64,000 bases of DNA. Source: a bacterium. GTDB lineage: Bacteria; Patescibacteriota; Patescibacteriia; Patescibacteriales; GWC2-42-12. Position numbers and translations under genes: made by a program. Shown here piece by piece: positions 2,073-60,244 of this stretch (positions are counted from its first letter, which is position 1; every line of letters starts with the position of its first letter). The stretch lies in the NCBI GenBank assembly GCA_030650415.1, contig JAUSEG010000042.1, positions 15,052 through 79,051 of the forward strand, read 5' to 3'. The notes below the pieces were generated by a model that worked only from the letters and a program-made list of their open reading frames with translations, was not told the origin of the DNA and ran no database searches.

Positions 2073-2230
2073 GTCATTCCCGAAGCCAAAGGCTATCGGG
2101 AATCCAGGAGGGAAAGGTAAAAATGTTTTTTACTTTCGCCCGCTGGTTCAAGTTATTATATTAAACAGAGTTGAAGGGAAAAACACATTTTTGCTACTCA
2201 CTCCTGGATTCCCGCCTGCGCGGGAATGAC
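2073..2230. mobile_element. 158-bp MITE-like element, GTCAT...ATGAC family
   Basis: The left end is GTCATTCCCGAAGCCAAAGGCTATCGGGAATCCAGG and the right end is CCTGGATTCCCGCCTGCGCGGGAATGAC, with an AT-rich core. It has the same architecture and length as 23099-23256 and 44739-44895. Confidence 0.7.
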
Positions 2231-2238
2231 AAAATAAT

Positions 2239-3063
2239 TTATCTAACTTCACAAATTTTCGCGTATTTCCGTCCAATCTCGGCCATTTCATTCATCTGCC
2301 GGGAATTATACGGCACCTTGCCCTTTAGCTTCTGATTTACCAACTCGCTTTGGCTTTTAAAATTTTGCAGATACCATTTTCCCGCCCCCTTAATTATTTT
2401 TCCCATCTCGTTGATATCGTTTTTATCCAAGAGGTCGGGCACCACCGTAGTTCTAAATTCATAGGGCAAGCCGCTAGCTCTTATTATCTTAACACTTTTT
2501 TTTACCCCGTCAAATAATTTTGCCACGGGCAAAATTCGTTCCGCTTGGCGGGACGATTTGACGGGGTGAATATAATTAAAATCCACGCTAACTTCCGTAA
2601 CCTCGCCATACTTATATTCGGGCGCCTTTAAATCCATGGCAATATAGTCTATTAATTTCTCTTTAACCAATTCGGCTAAAACTTCCGGATAACTGCCGTT
2701 AGTATCGAGCTTTATTAAATAACCCAGAGCCTTGATTTTTTTAATAAACTCGACCAAATCTTTTTGCAAACATGGCTCGCCGCCGGTTATAACCACGGCG
2801 TCCAGCTTGCCTGACCGATCTTTCAAAAAAACAAAAAAGTCATCCTGATTTATAATCGGATGAGCTTTTTGTTGCTCGATTTCTCTTCCGCTCTCGCGAA
2901 TAAGCTCTCGAACATATTTTAACTTGCTACCCTTAACGGGCCAGACAAGCATGGGGTTATAGCAAAACTGGCAGCGGAAATTACAACCTTGGGTAAAGAC
3001 TATGGCGCTAATTTTCCCCGGGTAATCCAACAAACTGAATTTTTGCAAGCCGCCGATAATCAT
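2239..3063 (-). CDS. nrdG: anaerobic ribonucleoside-triphosphate reductase activating protein (radical SAM)
   Basis: N-terminal CNFRCQFCYNP radical-SAM CxxxCxxC motif. It lies downstream of nrdD. Confidence 0.88.
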   Translation of the reverse strand: MIIGGLQKFSLLDYPGKISAIVFTQGCNFRCQFCYNPMLVWPVKGSKLKYVRELIRESGREIEQQKAHPIINQDDFFVFLKDRSGKLDAVVITGGEPCLQKDLVEFIKKIKALGYLIKLDTNGSYPEVLAELVKEKLIDYIAMDLKAPEYKYGEVTEVSVDFNYIHPVKSSRQAERILPVAKLFDGVKKSVKIIRASGLPYEFRTTVVPDLLDKNDINEMGKIIKGAGKWYLQNFKSQSELVNQKLKGKVPYNSRQMNEMAEIGRKYAKICEVR

Positions 3064-6099: not shown

Positions 6100-6155
6100 C
6101 CCCGTTAAATAAACTGCTTGGCAGTTTAAAATTTTAACAAATTTTATTAAACGGG
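6100..6155. repeat. CCCCGTTA...TAACGGGG family palindromic element
   Basis: CCCCGTTAAATAA...TTATTAAACGGGG followed by TAAA. Located in the nrdR leader. Confidence 0.6.
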
Positions 6156-6205
6156 GTAAACCTGGAATCTCTAAGCTTTATCCATATCTTGTGGTTGTTG
6201 ATTTA

Positions 6206-6453: not shown

Positions 6454-6711
6454 TTAAAGATACAGCCGTTTTACTCTAATAAATTTTATTTTTTCCAATC
6501 TGGTCAGATTTTTTATCCGGCATTCCTTTTTGGCGGCTAAAGATTTGCTTTTTGCTTTAAAATAGCCGGCCAGCTTCACCGGCCGCCTGCCTCTCGTATA
6601 TTTCGCGCCTAAAATCGAGCTATTATGCTCCTTAACCCGCCTTTTTACGTCCGTCGTTATACCTGTATAGAAAGTTCCGTCCGCGCATTTTAAAATATAG
6701 ACAAACCACAT
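6454..6711 (-). CDS. GIY-YIG nuclease family protein (small, COG2827/UPF0213-like)
   Basis: MWFVYILKCADGTFYTGITTDVKRRVKEHN has the GIY..YIG-type N-terminal motifs. The track ORF is extended to 6807 only by translating repeats. Confidence 0.85.
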   Translation of the reverse strand: MWFVYILKCADGTFYTGITTDVKRRVKEHNSSILGAKYTRGRRPVKLAGYFKAKSKSLAAKKECRIKNLTRLEKIKFIRVKRLYL

Positions 6712-21123: not shown

Positions 21124-21213
21124 TATGAATAATGAATTATGAATAACGAATTATGAATAACGCCAACCGCCCCATTTCCTCCTCCGTAATTCATGATTCA
21201 TAATTCATGATTC
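21124..21213. repeat. inverted pair of ATGAAT/ATTCAT arrays in the ftsZ leader
   Basis: Arms at 21124-21160 (tatgaataatgaattatgaataacgaattatgaataacg) and 21186-21213 (gtaattcatgattcataattcatgattc). The loop carries GGAGGAGG plus an ATG. Confidence 0.75.
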
Positions 21214-21224
21214 TCTGCTTTTAT

Positions 21225-21251
21225 ATTATAACATTATTTTAAATATAGCAA
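21225..21251 (-). promoter_or_regulatory. candidate ftsZ promoter (TTGCTA-N15-TGtTATAAT)
   Basis: Minus-sense ttgctatatttaaaataatgttataat lies just upstream of the ATGAAT hairpin. The short spacer lowers confidence. Confidence 0.3.
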
Positions 21252-21340
21252 GTATTGTCTTCCATAGGTAACTTTCAATGCGTTCATGCGACTGTACAAA
21301 AGTTTTATACACCCTACATTCTTTTTTGCATTTGCATTTA

Positions 21341-21381
21341 CCATTATTCCTTATTCATAATTCATAATTCATTATTCATTT
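21341..21381. repeat. ATTCAT array element
   Basis: ccattattccttattcataattcataattcattattcattt, abutting the ftsA stop codon. Confidence 0.7.
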
Positions 21382-23098: not shown

Positions 23099-23256
23099 GT
23101 CATTCCCGAAGCCACAGGCTGTCGGGAATCCAGGGGTAAAATGTATAATTTTCATCTGTAAGTATATACTCACCAAATAAATAGTCTCTTATTTAATTTT
23201 TTTATTTTTATTGTTCCTGCTGTTCCCTCCTGGATTCCCGCTTGCGCGGGAATGAC
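23099..23256. mobile_element. 158-bp MITE-like element, GTCAT...ATGAC family
   Basis: GTCATTCCCGAAGCCACAGGCTGTCGGGAATCCAGGGGTAAAATGTATAATT...CCTCCTGGATTCCCGCTTGCGCGGGAATGAC. The subterminal sequence resembles the GIY-YIG element at 33139-33538. Confidence 0.7.
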
Positions 23257-23290
23257 AAAAAATGGTCTTTGTCATTTTGCATTTTGAGAT

Positions 23291-23767
23291 TTATATTTCA
23301 AAATTTTTAATAAACTCCTCCCCGATTTTTATCATTTCTTTCTTAGTCTTCACGGTCTGATCGTTATAACCTAAGAGATGCAATAACCCATGGACTAAAA
23401 TGAAAACTAATTCCTCTTGAGCGCTATGATTAAATTTACCGGCTTGCCGTTTAATTTGGCTGTAATCAATAATAATTTCGCCAAAAAAATCGCCTTCTCC
23501 TGCTTGCCCCGTCAAATTGCCCTCGGCACTATTTGATGGGGTGAAACTTAAAACATCTGTTGGCTTATTTAACTTGCGATAAGCCTGATTAATTTTTTTT
23601 ATTTCAGCGTCGGAAACGAAAGCGATAGAAACTTCTTTATGTTTTAACTTATAAACGCGCGCGAATTCGGCCGTTACTCGTTTAATTAAATTTAAATCTA
23701 TCTTATGTTCGGTCCGATTATTAATTTCTATTATTATATTTCTATCGTTCGTATTTGCATTTTCCAT
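23291..23767 (-). CDS. ybeY: rRNA maturation endoribonuclease YbeY
   Basis: HGLLHLLGYND zinc-binding motif (HGxLHLxGYDH) and the expected size. Confidence 0.88.
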   Translation of the reverse strand: MENANTNDRNIIIEINNRTEHKIDLNLIKRVTAEFARVYKLKHKEVSIAFVSDAEIKKINQAYRKLNKPTDVLSFTPSNSAEGNLTGQAGEGDFFGEIIIDYSQIKRQAGKFNHSAQEELVFILVHGLLHLLGYNDQTVKTKKEMIKIGEEFIKNFEI

Positions 23768-44738: not shown

Positions 44739-44895
44739 GTCATTCCCGAAGCCGAAGGCTGTCGGGAATCCAGGAGTTAAATGTGCTATTATTATTTATA
44801 ACATACATCTGCCAGATAAATATTCTTTTAATTAATTTTATTCTTTAATATTACTCCTGCTTTCTCTCATGGATTCCCGCCTTCGCGGGAATGAC
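44739..44895. mobile_element. 157-bp MITE-like element, GTCAT...ATGAC family
   Basis: GTCATTCCCGAAGCCGAAGGCTGTCGGGAATCCAGGAGTTAAATGT...CATGGATTCCCGCCTTCGCGGGAATGAC, followed by a CTCGCAATGAC half-unit. Confidence 0.7.
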
Positions 44896-44927
44896 AAGGA
44901 GGCTCTCGCAATGACATCCACAATATT

Positions 44928-50695: not shown

Positions 50696-51583
50696 CTACT
50701 TAAAAACGCTAAGCAGCTTTAACCAATCATCAACCGATAATTCCTGGGCTCTAATCTTACCGTTAAACCCGGCCTGAATAATTTTATTTTCCGCATCAGC
50801 TTGATCTATCTTAAAACCGGCGGCTAGATTATTTTTTAGCATCTTTCTTCTGGCGCTAAAGCCGAATTTCACCAATTGAAAAAAGTTTTTTTCTCTCTCT
50901 ATCCCCCCTGACAAGGGGGGAAGAAGGGGGGTTTTATGGGGTATAATTTTTATTATAGCACTATCGACCTTCGGTTCCGGCCAAAAAAATTCCTTGGGCA
51001 CGAGTTTAATAATCTCCGCTTGAGCGTAAAATTTAACCGAAACGGAAAGTAAACTCATTTTCCCGGGCTTGCCCCGTGAAATGCGCTTCGCGCCCCGACT
51101 TATTGCCGGGATTTCACGGGGTGAAGCGGTAATTCTTTCCGCCACTTCCTTTTGCAGCATGAGCGCCATTAAATCGGGCTTTATTTCCGCCTCAAGAAAC
51201 TTTCTTAAAAATATGGAAGTAATGTTATATGGCAGATTCGCCACAACTTTAAATTTTGAAATTGGAAATTTTAATATGTCGCCATTTACTACTTCGACAT
51301 TCTCAATCTTCCGCGCGGCCAGTCCGATCTCTAAAACCTCGGCCAATTTATCGTCTAACTCCACGGCGATTACTTTTTTAACTCGAGCTGCTAGCTTAAA
51401 CGTCAAAAAACCTAAACCCGGTCCAACTTCTAAAACTATGTCATCAATTTTTAAATCGGCCGCGGCCACCATCTCGTCGTAAGCTTCTTCTCTAATTAAA
51501 AAATTCTGCCCTTTTGAGCGGGCAGGAATTATCTGATGCAGTTTGCACAAATTTTTAGTTTGTTCGAGTAAATCCATATACAT
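50696..51583 (-). CDS. rsmA: 16S rRNA (adenine1518/1519-N6)-dimethyltransferase
   Basis: KGQNFL, VLEVGPGLGFLT, ANLPYNI and FSARRK motifs. Contains two repeat-derived in-frame insertions. Confidence 0.9.
   Translation of the reverse strand: MYMDLLEQTKNLCKLHQIIPARSKGQNFLIREEAYDEMVAAADLKIDDIVLEVGPGLGFLTFKLAARVKKVIAVELDDKLAEVLEIGLAARKIENVEVVNGDILKFPISKFKVVANLPYNITSIFLRKFLEAEIKPDLMALMLQKEVAERITASPREIPAISRGAKRISRGKPGKMSLLSVSVKFYAQAEIIKLVPKEFFWPEPKVDSAIIKIIPHKTPLLPPLSGGIEREKNFFQLVKFGFSARRKMLKNNLAAGFKIDQADAENKIIQAGFNGKIRAQELSVDDWLKLLSVFK
50903..50931 (+). repeat. hairpin+G-run variant inside rsmA
   Basis: CCCCCCTGACAAGGGGGGAAGAAGGGGGG, read on the minus strand as PLLPPLSGG. Confidence 0.6.
51072..51121. 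repeat. 50-bp CCCCGTGAAAT...ATTTCACGGGG element inserted in frame in rsmA
   Basis: Perfect 11-bp inverted arms. It is translated as part of PREIPAISRGAKRISRGK, an 18-aa block that interrupts the usual KsgA ...A.PG.K.Y..LSV... region. Confidence 0.75.
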
Positions 51584-52147: not shown

Positions 52148-52228
52148 CCCCGTTAGAAATTAATCCATATTAACGGACTGTAAATCGCTTATATATCTAT
52201 AATTTTATGAATAATATTTCTAACGGGG
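52148..52228. repeat. 81-bp element with perfect 13-bp TIRs CCCCGTTAGAAAT/ATTTCTAACGGGG enclosing a start codon
   Basis: Left TIR at 52148-52160, right TIR at 52216-52228, and the ATG at 52207 inside. The outer flanks TTTTCA/TAAAAA extend the inverted repeat. Confidence 0.75.
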
Positions 52229-53196: not shown

Positions 53197-53240
53197 AAAA
53201 ACCTTAATTTTAACGCGAACAAAAAAATAGAAAATAAAAA

Positions 53241-53397
53241 GACTCTTAGCTATATTGCAAGCATAGAAAGATTTAGGATTAGATTTAGCCTGAAATTTAT
53301 TTACAAACATTTCTTTCTCCTTTTCTCATAGAAATTTTGTTAAAAATTTCAGGCTAAATCCCTAAATTTTTCGTGGCAAACAATATAGCTAAGAGCC
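53241..53397. repeat. ~157-bp long imperfect inverted repeat between convergent genes
   Basis: CTCTTAGCTATATTG...ATTTAGCCTGAAATTT // AAATTTCAGGCTAAAT...CAATATAGCTAAGAG. Confidence 0.65.
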
Positions 53398-53439
53398 TTT
53401 TTATTAAATTTGTGACGAGCGATATAGTTAAGGTCTTTT

Positions 53440-56724: not shown

Positions 56725-57021
56725 TTTTCACCCCGTGAAATAAGATTTGAGCCTTTTTCTTAAAAACATTTTACCGTAATGAGTTTTTAAATGCTTTTCG
56801 CGTCGAGTAGCATCTTGTTGATTTAAACAACTTTCGTAATAAATCAACTTCAATGGTCTTCGATTCATTGTCGACTCTACTAACCCCATAGCATGTTGCT
56901 CAAATCTTAATTTTAAATTTTTAGTATATCCAACATATTGTTTTTTATCCTTTAAACTTAACAAAACATAAGTATGATACATATTAAAACAAAATTTAAA
57001 ATTATTTCACGGGGTAAAAAC
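56725..57021. mobile_element. GIY-YIG gene bracketed by inverted repeats TTATTTCACGGGGTrAAAA
   Basis: A perfect 13-bp IR (56731-56743 CCCCGTGAAATAA; 57003-57015 TTATTTCACGGGG) extends to about 19 bp with one mismatch. The same termini occur in cargo-less elements at 51072-51121 and 52148-52228. Confidence 0.55.
56728..56982 (-). CDS. GIY-YIG nuclease family protein (84 aa)
   Basis: YHTYVLLSLKDKKQYVGYTKNLKLRFEQH...RREKHLK. The last codons (YFTG*) are encoded by the left inverted repeat. Confidence 0.85.
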   Translation of the reverse strand: MYHTYVLLSLKDKKQYVGYTKNLKLRFEQHAMGLVESTMNRRPLKLIYYESCLNQQDATRREKHLKTHYGKMFLRKRLKSYFTG

Positions 57022-57214
57022 GGGCTTAACCCTAGAGCCTATCTTAAAAATAATCTCTGGATCGTTTTCGGTCTTTTTTGGCTACAAAATTATAAAATTT
57101 TGTCGAAATAATTTATTATTCCTCCTTAATTTTCTAATTTTTCGCTCAAAAAATCCTCGAAAACGACTTAGAGCTATTTTTAAGATAGGCTCCTGAAGAA
57201 TTAAGCCCGCTTTT
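57017..57214. repeat. ~200-bp long imperfect inverted repeat
   Basis: Arms of about 50 bp (AAAACGGGCTTAA..GAGCCTATCTTAAAAATA...CGTTTTCG // CGAAAACG...TATTTTTAAGATAGGCTC..TTAAGCCCGCTTTT). Confidence 0.65.
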
Positions 57215-57893: not shown

Positions 57894-57983
57894 AGAATTA
57901 TGAATAAAGAATTATAAATTATGAGCCGTAAATTCTATTTGGCCTTTTTCCATAATTCATGATTCATTATTCATAATTCATTT
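57894..57983. repeat. inverted pair of ATGAAT/ATTCAT arrays in the pdaD leader
   Basis: Arms at 57894-57925 and 57950-57983, the same layout as the ftsZ leader. Confidence 0.7.
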
Positions 57984-58250: not shown

Positions 58251-58346
58251 CCCCGTTAAATTAAAATGAATTTAAACTTAATATCTATTACTAATGTAAT
58301 ACTCGTTCACCTCTTCGTCAAGGTATTTAGCTTCTATTTAACGGGG
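58251..58346. repeat. 96-bp element with perfect 11-bp TIRs CCCCGTTAAAT/ATTTAACGGGG
   Basis: Ends 16 nt upstream of the dsbA-like start codon and is followed by TAAA like the other copies. Confidence 0.7.
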
Positions 58347-59091: not shown

Positions 59092-59292
59092 GGATCCGCC
59101 AGCTGGCGGAGACGAAGCAATCTTCTTAATTGTCATCCCCGACCTGATCGGGGATCCAGAAATATAGCCAGAGTATACAATTTTGGATTCTCATGGCTAC
59201 GCCAGATCTCGCATAGCGATGACCGCCTGCGCGGGAATGACAGAAACGGTGAGATTCCCGGGTCATGCCCGGGACTAAAGGCTCGCAATGAC
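59092..59292. repeat. nested repeat cluster upstream of porG
   Basis: Outer GTCATTGCGAGG...GCTCGCAATGAC. Inner 78-bp-type unit at 59132-59241, itself interrupted at 59191-59222 by a 32-bp unit that also occurs at 58029-58062. Confidence 0.75.
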
Positions 59293-60235: not shown

Positions 60236-60244
60236 CCTCATGCT

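What the first reader, a model, noticed from the sequence alone, without database searches (positions are those of the whole stretch)
56725..57021. Second GIY-YIG gene bracketed by a different inverted repeat (TTATTTCACGGGGTrAAAA) that also has miniature copies
Seen in sequence:
- CCCCGTGAAATAA (56731-56743) and TTATTTCACGGGG (57003-57015) are perfect 13-bp inverted repeats. They extend to about 19 bp with one mismatch and bracket the 84-aa GIY-YIG ORF.
- The last four codons of that ORF (YFTG) and its adjacent stop codon are supplied by the repeat.
- The same termini bound cargo-less units. One is the 50-bp copy in rsmA (51072-51121, CCCCGTGAAAT...ATTTCACGGGG).
- With a G-to-T change in the arm (CCCCGTTA...TAACGGGG), they also bound the units at 6100-6155, 41542-41617, 52148-52228 and 58251-58346. 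The 52148 copy even shares the outer TTTTCA/TAAAA flanks.

This is a second, independent pairing of a GIY-YIG gene with a TIR family that has miniature derivatives. It strengthens the idea that the association is functional rather than coincidental.
Basis: partly seen in the sequence, partly recalled or inferred. Interest (0 to 1): 0.78.

Follow-up and report, generated by a model that had tools for sequence, protein, structure and literature searches.

The report
Tiny nuclease gene folded as junction
A 288-base mobile cassette carries an 84-residue GIY-YIG nuclease gene whose own DNA folds into a conserved three-way junction, and it has gene-less miniature copies; it is a new variant of the recently described Ssn nuclease-plus-hairpin-repeat systems, and here there is direct evidence that it moves.

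Summary
An 84-aa GIY-YIG ORF (56728-56982, minus strand) is bracketed by CCCCGTGAAATAA / TTATTTCACGGGG. The last four codons and the stop codon lie in the repeat. Seven gene-less units with the same arms occur in the window.

The repeat is one stem (P1) of a three-way junction spanning the whole gene. Two further stems pair the 5' leader with codons 21-24, and codons 26-28 with codons 78-80. Across 62 loci, 95% of cells pair and 16 of 35 pairs show compensatory changes. Synonymous variation collapses exactly where the stems lie.

Short gene-less units are the same junction in miniature. A related metagenome contig lacks exactly the 288-nt cassette. RsmA homologues show a clean 54-nt in-frame insertion of a miniature.

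The kind is known: Ssn nucleases, small GIY-YIG single-strand DNA nucleases flanked by dispersed hairpin repeats (Chenal 2025). That family's repeat is also in this window, next to another GIY-YIG gene.

This clade differs. None of 62 cassettes matches the published Ssn repeat motif. The cognate structure is a junction interwoven with the coding sequence. The protein's nearest structures are UPF0213 and Slx1. That the nuclease cuts its own folded single-stranded DNA is inferred, not shown.

The parts
56729..57016 (-). Inserted cassette block, 288 nt (sense strand 5'-TACCCCGTG...CACGGGGTG-3')
   Evidence: It is absent from the otherwise colinear metagenome contig L082. The empty site reads ...GTCCGTTTT|AAAAAGATATATGG. 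The window reads ...GCCCGTTTT[cassette]AAAAATTATATGG.
56728..56982 (-). 84-aa stand-alone GIY-YIG nuclease ORF
   Evidence: Pfam PF01541, E 1e-15. AlphaFold2 pLDDT 91.7. Nearest folds are UPF0213 BH0048 and the Slx1 nuclease domain. Homologues are 70-85% identical and nearly all 84 aa long, ending RLKSY[FL]TG.
57002..57018 (-).
   Evidence: Alignment A3 columns 55-71; 93% of cells paired and 6 pairs with compensatory change.
56727..56743 (-).
   Evidence: A3 columns 345-361. Low synonymous entropy at codons 78-84.
56992..57001 (-). P2, 5' strand (sense TTTTAAATTT) in the 37-nt leader
   Evidence: A3 columns 72-81; 8 of 10 pairs show changes on both sides.
56911..56920 (-). P2, 3' strand (sense AAATTTAAAA, codons 21-24)
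   Evidence: A3 columns 168-177. It covaries with the leader even through synonymous and amino-acid changes, e.g. GCTTGAGG/CCTCAAGC and TGATGGCAAAT/ATTTGCCATCA.
56899..56906 (-). P3, 5' strand (sense GATTTGAG, codons 26-28)
   Evidence: A3 columns 182-189; 98.8% of cells paired. Phe27 is TTT in 100% and Arg26 is AGA in 87% of sequences.
56744..56751 (-). P3, 3' strand (sense CTCAAATC, codons 78-80)
   Evidence: A3 columns 337-344. Leu78 is CTC in 93% and Lys79 is AAA in 100% of sequences.
2505..2566 (.). Gene-less miniature three-way junction, in frame inside a radical-SAM ORF (2239-3063, minus strand)
   Evidence: It folds as a perfect junction as DNA, -27.2 kcal/mol, z -7.9. It is translated as HPVKSSRQAERILPVAKLFDGV.
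6100..6156 (.). Gene-less miniature three-way junction, intergenic
   Evidence: P1 plus two hairpins separated by TTAA, z -5.2.
23507..23541 (.). Shortest unit (P1 plus one small hairpin), in frame inside ybeY
   Evidence: It lies in a loop about 7 aa longer than in E. coli YbeY.
41542..41617 (.). Longer unit with P1 arms only; the interior is not structured
   Evidence: z -3.1. No interior similarity to the cassette.
51071..51124 (.). 54-nt in-frame insertion of a miniature junction in rsmA (18 aa, SPREIPAISRGAKRISRG)
   Evidence: 56 of the 59 closest RsmA homologues have a clean 18-aa gap here. At nucleotide level the empty site L169 reads GCT|AAA.
52148..52228 (.). Longer unit with 15-nt P1 arms and the same TTTTCA/TAAAA flanks as the cassette
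   Evidence: (I23). The interior is unrelated to the cassette.
58251..58346 (.). Longer unit with P1 arms, upstream of a DsbA-like gene
   Evidence: It is absent from the corresponding spacer of L082, but that alignment is not clean.

Best explanation
This is a compact mobile cassette of the Ssn type. It is a promoter-less, 84-aa single-domain GIY-YIG nuclease gene whose entire 288 nt fold, as a single strand, into a three-way junction.

- P2 pairs the 5' leader with codons 21-24.
- P3 pairs codons 26-28 with codons 78-80.

Shown here:
- The junction is conserved by covariation across phyla and constrains synonymous sites.
- The ORF is kept intact in most copies.
- The cassette is a discrete insertion with a precise empty site and no target duplication.
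- Gene-less 50-65-nt units reproduce the same junction (the P1 sequence plus two hairpins of free sequence) and are themselves insertions, including in-frame ones in essential genes.
- The cassette almost always lies co-directionally inside gene strings.

Inferred:
- By analogy with SsnA, which binds its hairpin repeat only on single-stranded DNA and cuts beside it, and from the Slx1/UPF0213-like fold, the nuclease probably recognises the folded junction on one DNA strand (the gene-sense strand) and nicks at its base.
- This activity, with host repair or ligation, would drive or have driven spread of the cassette and, in trans, of the miniatures into T^A steps of A/T-rich or palindromic sites.
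- Expression would depend on read-through from the host operon.
For: **Structure**
- 95% of 2158 cells are paired, against 27-55% when the partners are slid. 16 of 35 pairs (98 cells) changed on both sides. 0 of 500 shuffles reached any measure.
- distinct P2 haplotypes are compensated in the leader.
- codon entropy falls to 0-0.9 bits at codons 22-28 and 78-84, against 1.5-2.3 bits for the same amino acids elsewhere.
- the RNA minimum-free-energy fold reproduces the junction, z -7.1.
- 10 of 15 short units fold as perfect junctions as DNA, z -5 to -10.

**Mobility**
- L082 is 80-83% identical in both flanks and lacks exactly the 288 nt.
- the 54-nt miniature is absent from 56 of 59 closest RsmA genes. 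The copy in L167 is 89% identical in nucleotides although the host RsmA is only 58% identical in protein.
- there are 567 relatives at 70-83% identity, in unrelated contexts, in Patescibacteria, Bacteroidota (including the Ancylomarina isolate and a Roseivirga chromosome), Elusimicrobia, Cloacimonadota and others.
- only 3 of 80 copies carry internal stop codons.
- miniatures number 13 in 541 kb of cassette loci, 0 in 320 kb of control loci, and 7 in the 64-kb window.

**Strand and orientation**
- in the core helices G.T pairs number 34 against 15 A.C on the sense strand.
- both neighbours are co-directional in 53 of 66 loci and both opposite in 2.

**Protein**
- nearest structures are UPF0213 and then Slx1, a nuclease specific for branched DNA.

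**Precedent**
- PMC11893778.
Against: - No biochemical data exist for this clade.
- Membership in the Ssn clade (CDD cd10448) could not be tested, and the published Ssn repeat motif is absent (0 of 62).
- GIY-YIG nucleases are not known to carry out strand transfer, so insertion would need host functions.
- P2 and P3 enclose loops of about 85 and 147 nt (alignment columns). These loops, the sense-strand G.U bias and the co-orientation with transcription fit an RNA structure equally well.
- Only one cassette empty site was found, so the exact ends and the target rule (T^A) rest on two sites.
- The window's rsmA miniature has a decayed hairpin, so resident copies need not be functional.
- The three long units have no junction interior.
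Confidence: 0.55

Rival explanations
1. The junction is an mRNA structure. It would control translation or stability of the nuclease transcript and perhaps of the downstream host gene, and the miniatures would be RNA elements such as processing or termination signals. The nuclease would then be unrelated to the spread of the repeats.
For: - There is a sense-strand G.U excess (34 against 15).
- 53 of 66 cassettes are co-directional with both neighbours.
- 35 of 78 have a co-directional ORF starting within 14 nt of the stop codon.
- The RNA minimum-free-energy fold equals the junction.
- The large P2 and P3 loops are easier to form in RNA.
Against: - SsnA, the characterised relative, does not bind RNA (PMC11893778).
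- In the radical-SAM and ybeY miniatures, the strand that pairs through G.T is antisense to the host mRNA.
- Miniatures sit in frame inside ORFs and decay there.
- An RNA role does not explain why free-sequence hairpins with a fixed P1 sequence are dispersed and inserted.
- No Rfam family matches.
Confidence: 0.2
2. It is a domesticated Ssn-like host system. The nuclease would cut incoming or exposed single-stranded DNA that carries the junction, for example to modulate natural transformation as proposed for Neisseria. The repeats would spread by other means, and the cassette would no longer be a selfish element.
For: - There is a direct precedent.
- The ORFs are intact in most genomes.
- From my own knowledge, Patescibacteria carry competence-type DNA uptake machinery.
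Against: - The cassette is absent from a close relative at a precise site.
- The closest cassette relatives lie in unrelated contexts and in several phyla at 70-83% identity.
- Pseudogenised copies exist.
- This pattern is that of a horizontally moving element, not a vertically kept host gene. The two readings are not exclusive.
Confidence: 0.2
3. It is a classical cut-and-paste transposon. The 13-19-bp arms would be double-stranded terminal inverted repeats bound by a transposase, with the GIY-YIG protein acting as that transposase, and the small units would be its miniature non-autonomous derivatives (MITEs).
For: There are inverted termini, gene-less copies with the same termini, and presence/absence polymorphism.
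Against: - No target-site duplication is seen at either empty site.
- The two arms covary as base pairs, and so do leader/coding and coding/coding segments, which double-stranded protein-binding sites would not require.
- Miniatures conserve shape but not interior sequence.
- There is no DDE or other transposase domain.
Confidence: 0.07
4. It is a free-standing homing endonuclease gene. The nuclease would cut cassette-less alleles and the gene would be copied in by break repair, so the flanking repeat would belong to the target.
For: The GIY-YIG family includes homing enzymes. The same miniature sits at the same rsmA site in hosts only 58% identical.
Against: - The protein is 84 aa with no DNA-binding domain.
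- The fold is nearer Slx1/UPF0213 than I-TevI.
- The flanks of 62 loci are unrelated beyond TTY/RAA.
- The arms belong to the inserted block.
- No relatives were found in viral contigs, phage records or plasmid records.
Confidence: 0.05

Closest known systems
Ssn nucleases with NTS/SRM hairpin repeats (Chenal et al. 2025, Nat Commun 16:2388, PMC11893778)
   Same: - It is a small single-domain GIY-YIG protein.
- Its gene is bracketed by inverted structured repeats, and the same repeat is dispersed in gene-less copies.
- The architecture resembles an insertion sequence.
- The window itself holds 10 matches to the published SRM motif, and an SRM-type cassette at 33137-33540.
   Different: - The protein is a different clade: 36% identity, E 1e-9, to the window's SRM-flanked paralogue.
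- 0 of 62 cassettes match the SRM motif.
- In the Ssn system each flank has its own hairpin. Here the two flanks pair with each other and with coding sequence to form a three-way junction, and the miniatures are junctions rather than hairpins.
- Mobility was only hypothesised for Ssn. Here empty sites are shown.
IS200/IS605 insertion sequences and the REP/RAYT (REPIN) systems
   Same: Recognition depends on folded single-stranded DNA. No target duplication is made. Insertion is orientation-biased. One nuclease gene is accompanied by many short structured non-coding partners.
   Different: Those use an HUH/Y1 transposase that forms a covalent intermediate. Here the only protein is a GIY-YIG nuclease. 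The ends pair with each other rather than forming separate subterminal hairpins. The element is about 288 nt, whereas IS200 is about 700 nt (from my own knowledge).
Slx1 and bacterial UPF0213 proteins (BH0048, EF2693)
   Same: They are the nearest sequence and fold relatives. Slx1 is selective for branched DNA such as flaps, Y structures and junctions.
   Different: Slx1 needs Slx4 and a zinc-finger domain and is a repair enzyme. UPF0213 proteins have no known substrate. Neither is known to be tied to a cognate repeat.
Rickettsia palindromic elements
   Same: Short palindromic units are inserted in frame into essential protein-coding genes and are translated. This is established knowledge, and here it is seen in rsmA, ybeY and a radical-SAM gene.
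   Different: Sequence relatedness was not tested, and no nuclease gene has been assigned to those elements. The Ssn paper notes that Rickettsia is rich in SRM repeats.
Parvovirus (AAV) inverted terminal repeat, a T-shaped hairpin
   Same: The shape is the same: a long stem capped by two small hairpins forming a three-way junction in single-stranded DNA, recognised by a site-specific nicking enzyme (established knowledge).
   Different: It has an unrelated sequence, an unrelated HUH Rep enzyme and a different biology. The resemblance is one of shape only.

Membership tests
GIY-YIG nuclease superfamily | GIY-YIG catalytic domain with conserved Tyr, Tyr-x-Gly, Arg, His and Glu residues | tested here: met
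   PF01541 E 1.2e-15. Y5, G18, R26, H30, E50 and E62 are invariant in 20 homologues. AlphaFold2 pLDDT 91.7, with GIY-YIG folds as the top hits.
Ssn family (Chenal 2025) | Single-domain protein of about 90-100 aa with no extra domain | tested here: met
   84 aa, with one Pfam domain covering residues 1-71.
Ssn family (Chenal 2025) | Membership in the CDD cd10448 clade, or BLASTP E < 1e-10 with 75% coverage to N. meningitidis SsnA (CAX49033.1) | not testable with these tools
   Neither CDD nor the SsnA sequence is available here. Indirect evidence only: 36% identity, E 1e-9 over 66 aa, to the window's SRM-flanked 97-aa paralogue. Nearest solved structures are UPF0213 and Slx1.
Ssn family (Chenal 2025) | Gene flanked on both sides by SRM hairpins (HGTCWYN(0-2)YYVSBRHN(0-5)WNVSBRGN(0-2)RNCYNB) | tested here: not met
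   0 of 62 cassettes (with about 70 nt of upstream and 30 nt of downstream flank) match. The same pattern finds 10 sites elsewhere in the window, against 0.16 in shuffles.
Ssn family (Chenal 2025) | The cognate structured repeat is also present in gene-less copies in the same genome | tested here: met
   7 units in the window. 13 in 541 kb of other cassette loci against 0 in 320 kb of controls.
Ssn family (Chenal 2025) | Site-specific cleavage of single-stranded DNA only, directed by the folded repeat | not testable with these tools
   This needs purified protein.
IS200/IS605 and REP-associated transposases | HUH/Y1 transposase (TnpA or RAYT) | tested here: not met
   The only ORF is GIY-YIG.
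IS200/IS605 | No target-site duplication; folded single-strand ends | tested here: inconclusive
   No duplication is seen at two empty sites. However, the ends pair with each other rather than forming separate hairpins.
Cut-and-paste TIR transposon with MITEs | Target-site duplication and a DDE-type transposase | tested here: not met
   The sites read TTTT|AAAAA and GCT|AAA with no duplication. There is no transposase domain.
GIY-YIG homing endonucleases (I-TevI type) | A DNA-binding domain joined to the catalytic domain; residence in introns or phage genomes | tested here: not met
   84 aa only. The match to TIGR01453 scores 18 bits against a cut-off of 56. No relatives were found in IMG/VR viral contigs, phage records or plasmid records.
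Rfam RNA families | Match to any curated covariance model | tested here: not met
   There are no hits at gathering score in the window. Only sub-threshold microRNA-like hairpin hits appear on the units.

The most novel reading that the evidence does not exclude
The cassette is an autonomous transposable element of a new class. At 288 nt it would be the smallest self-mobilising DNA element known. A GIY-YIG nuclease would excise or nick and re-insert its own gene through a folded single-stranded three-way-junction intermediate, and would mobilise miniature junctions in trans. Other small GIY-YIG clades, including the Ssn family, would then be the same kind of element with different junction shapes.
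Probability: 0.3. Interest if true: 0.9.

Novelty: new variant of a known kind. Interest (0 to 1): 0.68.

Why it matters
The 2025 Ssn work showed that small GIY-YIG proteins cut single-stranded DNA next to their own hairpin repeat. It left open whether the gene-plus-repeat unit is a mobile element. This locus makes that question testable for four reasons.

- It has a precise empty site for the gene cassette.
- It has a codon-exact empty site for a miniature.
- It spreads across phyla.
- Its cognate structure, a three-way junction, is so tightly selected that it fixes synonymous codons inside the nuclease gene.

It also offers a candidate nuclease with a new, shape-defined single-strand DNA specificity. 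That is the property for which Ssn enzymes are being developed as tools. Finally, it explains a source of in-frame insertions in essential genes of Patescibacteria.

Tried and rejected
- **Rfam.** Three searches found no family.
- **Ribozyme core.** I looked for a hammerhead or other ribozyme core at the junction. There are no unpaired conserved junction bases apart from a TTAA linker, so I rejected this by inspection.
- **Vehicles.** Viral contigs, phage records and plasmid records hold no relatives, so no vehicle for horizontal transfer was identified.
- **Target-site duplication.** None is seen at either empty site. The exact ends remain ambiguous by 1-2 nt because the flanks are T and A runs.
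- **Long units as deletion derivatives.** Interior alignment scores for 41542, 52148 and 58251 lie within the shuffled range, so I rejected this.
- **Published Ssn motif on this clade.** 0 of 62 match.
- **Exact-protein look-ups of neighbours.** The LigD-PE look-up found nothing on record. The PdaD look-up returned one 1077-nt contig from another sample (SRR13727527) whose spacing matches the window, with a 28-aa partial ORF 251 nt after PdaD. This was no help for finding empty sites.
- **Arm matching within a genome.** Arms of cassette and miniatures in the same locus vary within CCCYGTKAAAT without strict matching, so a genome-specific pairing could not be shown.
- **L082 spacer at 58251-58346.** The unit is absent, but the alignment is too diverged to count as a clean empty site.
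- **Literature.** Eight full-text searches found the Ssn paper only through a search for the other repeat's sequence. Nothing describes this clade or a junction fold.
Full report
**1. Observation**

The ORF at 56728-56982 (minus strand) encodes 84 aa and is a GIY-YIG domain (PF01541, E 1.2e-15). CCCCGTGAAATAA lies at 56731-56743. The outer extension differs by a one-base indel. On the gene strand the 3' arm reads TAT TTC ACG GGG TGA (Y F T G stop).

The motif recurs well above chance. There are 10 matches to CCCCGTGAAAT with up to 1 mismatch against 1.5 expected, and 11 matches to ACCCCGTNA against 1.0 expected; no shuffle reaches either count. Every one of the 7 ACGGGG in the window has a CCCCGT partner 50-284 nt upstream. 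Two more were missed: 2505-2566 and 23507-23541.

**2. The repeat belongs to the gene everywhere**

The protein has thousands of relatives at 75-92% identity. Nearly all are exactly 84 aa and end in RLKSY[FL]TG. A scan of one genome per species found 567 relatives. The best 80 are 70-83% identical. They come from Patescibacteria, Bacteroidota (including the isolate Ancylomarina sp. DW003 and a Roseivirga chromosome), Elusimicrobia, Cloacimonadota, Bdellovibrionota-labelled bins and others.

In nearly all of them the gene is preceded by TTYACCCYGTKAAATAATTTTAAATTT and ends with CTCAAATCTTATTTMACRGGGTRAA. Changes are compensated: GTGAAA/TTTCAC, GTTAAA/TTTAAC, GTCAAA/TTTGAC, CTATG/CATAG and CCATG/CATGG. 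Conservation stops at TTY on the left and RAA on the right, and the flanks beyond are unrelated.

**3. The repeat is one stem of a three-way junction**

In the 62-sequence alignment A3 two further pairings appear. The leader TTTTAAATTT pairs with AAATTTAAAA (codons 21-24). GATTTGAG (codons 26-28) pairs with CTCAAATC (codons 78-80). A TTAA linker lies between them.

Variant lineages change both partners together. Deltaproteobacteria-labelled copies have GCTTGAGG in the leader and CCTCAAGC in the codons, which still encode N-L-K-L. Two other copies have TGATGGCAAAT and ATTTGCCATCA, which changes the peptide.

Counting pairs for P1+P2+P3 gives 95.0% of 2158 cells paired, against 27-55% when partners are slid by 1-3 columns. 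16 of 35 pairs and 98 cells changed on both sides. 0 of 500 shuffles reached any measure.

Synonymous-codon entropy drops to 0-0.9 bits at codons 22-28 and 78-84. The same amino acids elsewhere in the gene show 1.5-2.3 bits: for example, Leu78 is CTC in 93%, Gly84 is GGG in 94%, and Phe27 and Lys79 are invariant. The minimum-free-energy fold of the window cassette reproduces the junction (-80.7 kcal/mol, z -7.1). In the core helices G.T pairs outnumber A.C 34 to 15 on the gene-sense strand. This is a mild hint that the sense strand is the folded one.

**4. The miniatures are the same junction without the gene**

Short units occur in the window (2505, 6100, 51072) and in other genomes (L011, L041, L065, L075, L077). 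Each consists of the P1 arms plus two short hairpins with tri- or tetraloops, often separated by TT or TTAA. The hairpin sequences are unrelated between copies. As DNA, 10 of 15 fold into fully stacked junctions with z -5 to -10.

The three longer window units (41542, 52148, 58251) have only the arms. Their interiors are neither structured nor similar to the cassette. Units with these arms number 13 in 541 kb of cassette-bearing loci, 0 in 320 kb of unrelated control loci, and 7 in this 64-kb window.

**5. Both cassette and miniature are insertions**

A metagenome contig (L082) has a LigD-phosphoesterase gene 88% identical to the window's and flanks 80-83% identical in nucleotides. It is colinear with the window (arginine decarboxylase, a palindromic element, LigD-PE) but lacks exactly the cassette. 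L082 reads ...GTCCGTTTT|AAAAAGATATATGG. The window reads ...GCCCGTTTT[TACCCC...GGGGTG]AAAAATTATATGG. There is no duplication.

In RsmA, the 18-aa stretch SPREIPAISRGAKRISRG is present in only 3 of the 59 closest homologues, and the others show a clean gap. At nucleotide level the empty gene (L169) reads GCT|AAA. The filled genes read GCT[TCACCCCGTG...54 nt...CACGGGGY]AAR. The copy in L167 is 89% identical in nucleotides to the window's although the host protein is only 58% identical. This points to site-specific re-insertion or lateral transfer.

Two other miniatures lie in frame in a radical-SAM gene and in ybeY.

**6. Context**

The cassette has only 37 nt before its ATG and no room for a promoter. 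In 53 of 66 loci both neighbours are co-directional with it, and in only 2 are both opposite. In 35 of 78 loci a co-directional ORF starts within 14 nt of the stop codon.

Most copies are intact. Only 3 of 80 have internal stop codons (L003, L017, L072) and three have lost the stop codon. No relatives were found in IMG/VR viral contigs, phage records or plasmid records.

**7. Protein**

The nearest solved sequences are the UPF0213 proteins BH0048 and EF2693, followed by an SLX1 homologue. The AlphaFold2 model (pLDDT 91.7) is closest to BH0048 and to the Slx1 nuclease domain in its branched-DNA complexes (TM-score normalised to the query 0.6-0.66, rmsd 2.4 Å for 6seh). It ranks ahead of I-TevI.

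**8. What is known**

A full-text search for the other repeat family's sequence led to Chenal et al. 2025 (PMC11893778). SsnA is a 94-aa single-domain GIY-YIG protein of CDD family cd10448. It binds the hairpin repeat NTS (CGTCATTCCCGCGMAVGCGGGAATCYRG) only on single-stranded DNA and cuts upstream of it. The gene is flanked by these repeats, which are also dispersed in hundreds of copies. The authors noted the resemblance to an insertion sequence but did not show mobility.

Their degenerate motif finds 10 sites in this window against 0.16 in shuffles, and none in the 62 cassettes of the present clade.

The window's other GIY-YIG gene (33184-33477, 97 aa; 36% identical, E 1e-9) carries arms of the NTS design, TGTC-hairpin-CCAG. 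So do 4 of 4 foreign homologues, and the hairpin covaries among them. A third GIY-YIG gene, UPF0213-like, lies at 6454-6711 between similar repeats.

**9. Interpretation**

Shown:
- a conserved, covarying three-way junction interwoven with an intact nuclease gene;
- gene-less junction miniatures;
- precise insertion without duplication at T^A steps;
- wide horizontal distribution;
- strong co-orientation with host genes.

Inferred: the nuclease recognises its own folded single strand and nicks beside it, and this drives spread.

The main rival is an mRNA-level role for the fold. Sense-strand wobble and co-orientation fit both readings. Three points lean towards DNA: the SsnA precedent, the antisense-favoured G.T pairs in two intragenic miniatures, and the dispersal of shape-conserved units. 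A domesticated role, such as control of incoming single-stranded DNA, is compatible and not exclusive.

Classical TIR transposition and homing are disfavoured. Chance is excluded.

**10. Verdict**

This is a real, non-random feature. It is a new variant of the Ssn-type nuclease-plus-repeat system, with a different protein clade and a different, more elaborate cognate structure. It comes with the first direct sequence evidence I could find that such units are mobile.

Noticed in passing
window 2204-2231, 23230-23257, 39037-39106, 40603-40682, 44869-44896, 59131-59159, 60244-60272, 62784-62811: Ten matches to the published Ssn-related motif, for example TGTCATTCCCGCGCAGGCGGGAATCCAG. These are almost identical to the Neisseria NTS repeat, yet they sit in a low-GC genome whose closest relatives are Patescibacteria (shuffles give 0.16).
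   Followed up: partly
window 33137-33540: The other GIY-YIG cassette (97 aa) has perfect 31-nt arms, and each arm contains its own hairpin (ATTGCGGC/GCCGCAAT). Four foreign homologues have the same TGTC-hairpin-CCAG design with covarying hairpins. It lies between two giant ORFs (2513 and 1003 aa), both with T4SS-pilin-like N-terminal regions and Big_5 domains.
   Followed up: partly
window 6454-6711 (-): A third small GIY-YIG gene (about 86 aa, UPF0213-like, [25 protein letters not shown]...). It is preceded by GGATTCCAG...CCGGAATGACA and followed by GGATTGC...GCGGGGATGACA repeats. A miniature junction (6100-6156) lies 300 nt downstream.
   Followed up: no
window about 57017-57214: A roughly 200-bp palindromic element with imperfect terminal repeats of about 36 nt (AAAACGGGCTTAACCCTAGAGCCTATCTTAAAAATA...). 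It is also present in the related contig L082. The GIY-YIG cassette is inserted exactly at its end.
   Followed up: partly
L167:301-1257 and L168:301-1206 (rsmA of other Patescibacteria): The same 54-nt miniature sits at the same codon of rsmA in a host whose RsmA is only 58% identical, and the insert is 89% identical in nucleotides. The L167 copy has the better-formed hairpin (CCGACT GAA AGTCGG), while the window copy is decayed.
   Followed up: partly
RsmA homologues P0241-P0360: RsmA lengths among close Patescibacteria homologues range from 270 to 344 aa. This suggests that in-frame insertions at other positions are common in this essential gene.
   Followed up: no
window 21125-21380 and 57895-57979: A/T-rich arrays of GAATTATGAATAA-type units form long imperfect inverted repeats in two intergenic regions.
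   Followed up: no
L003, L017, L072 (cassette ORFs): These cassette copies have internal stop codons but still keep the P1-P3 pairings. L052, L058 and L066 show miniatures or partial 3' ends directly abutting or nested in other units, as if the ends attract new insertions.
   Followed up: no
window 53233-53405: The longest inverted repeat of the window (45-nt arms, 82% complementary) lies just downstream of leuS. It gave only sub-threshold microRNA-like Rfam hits.
   Followed up: no
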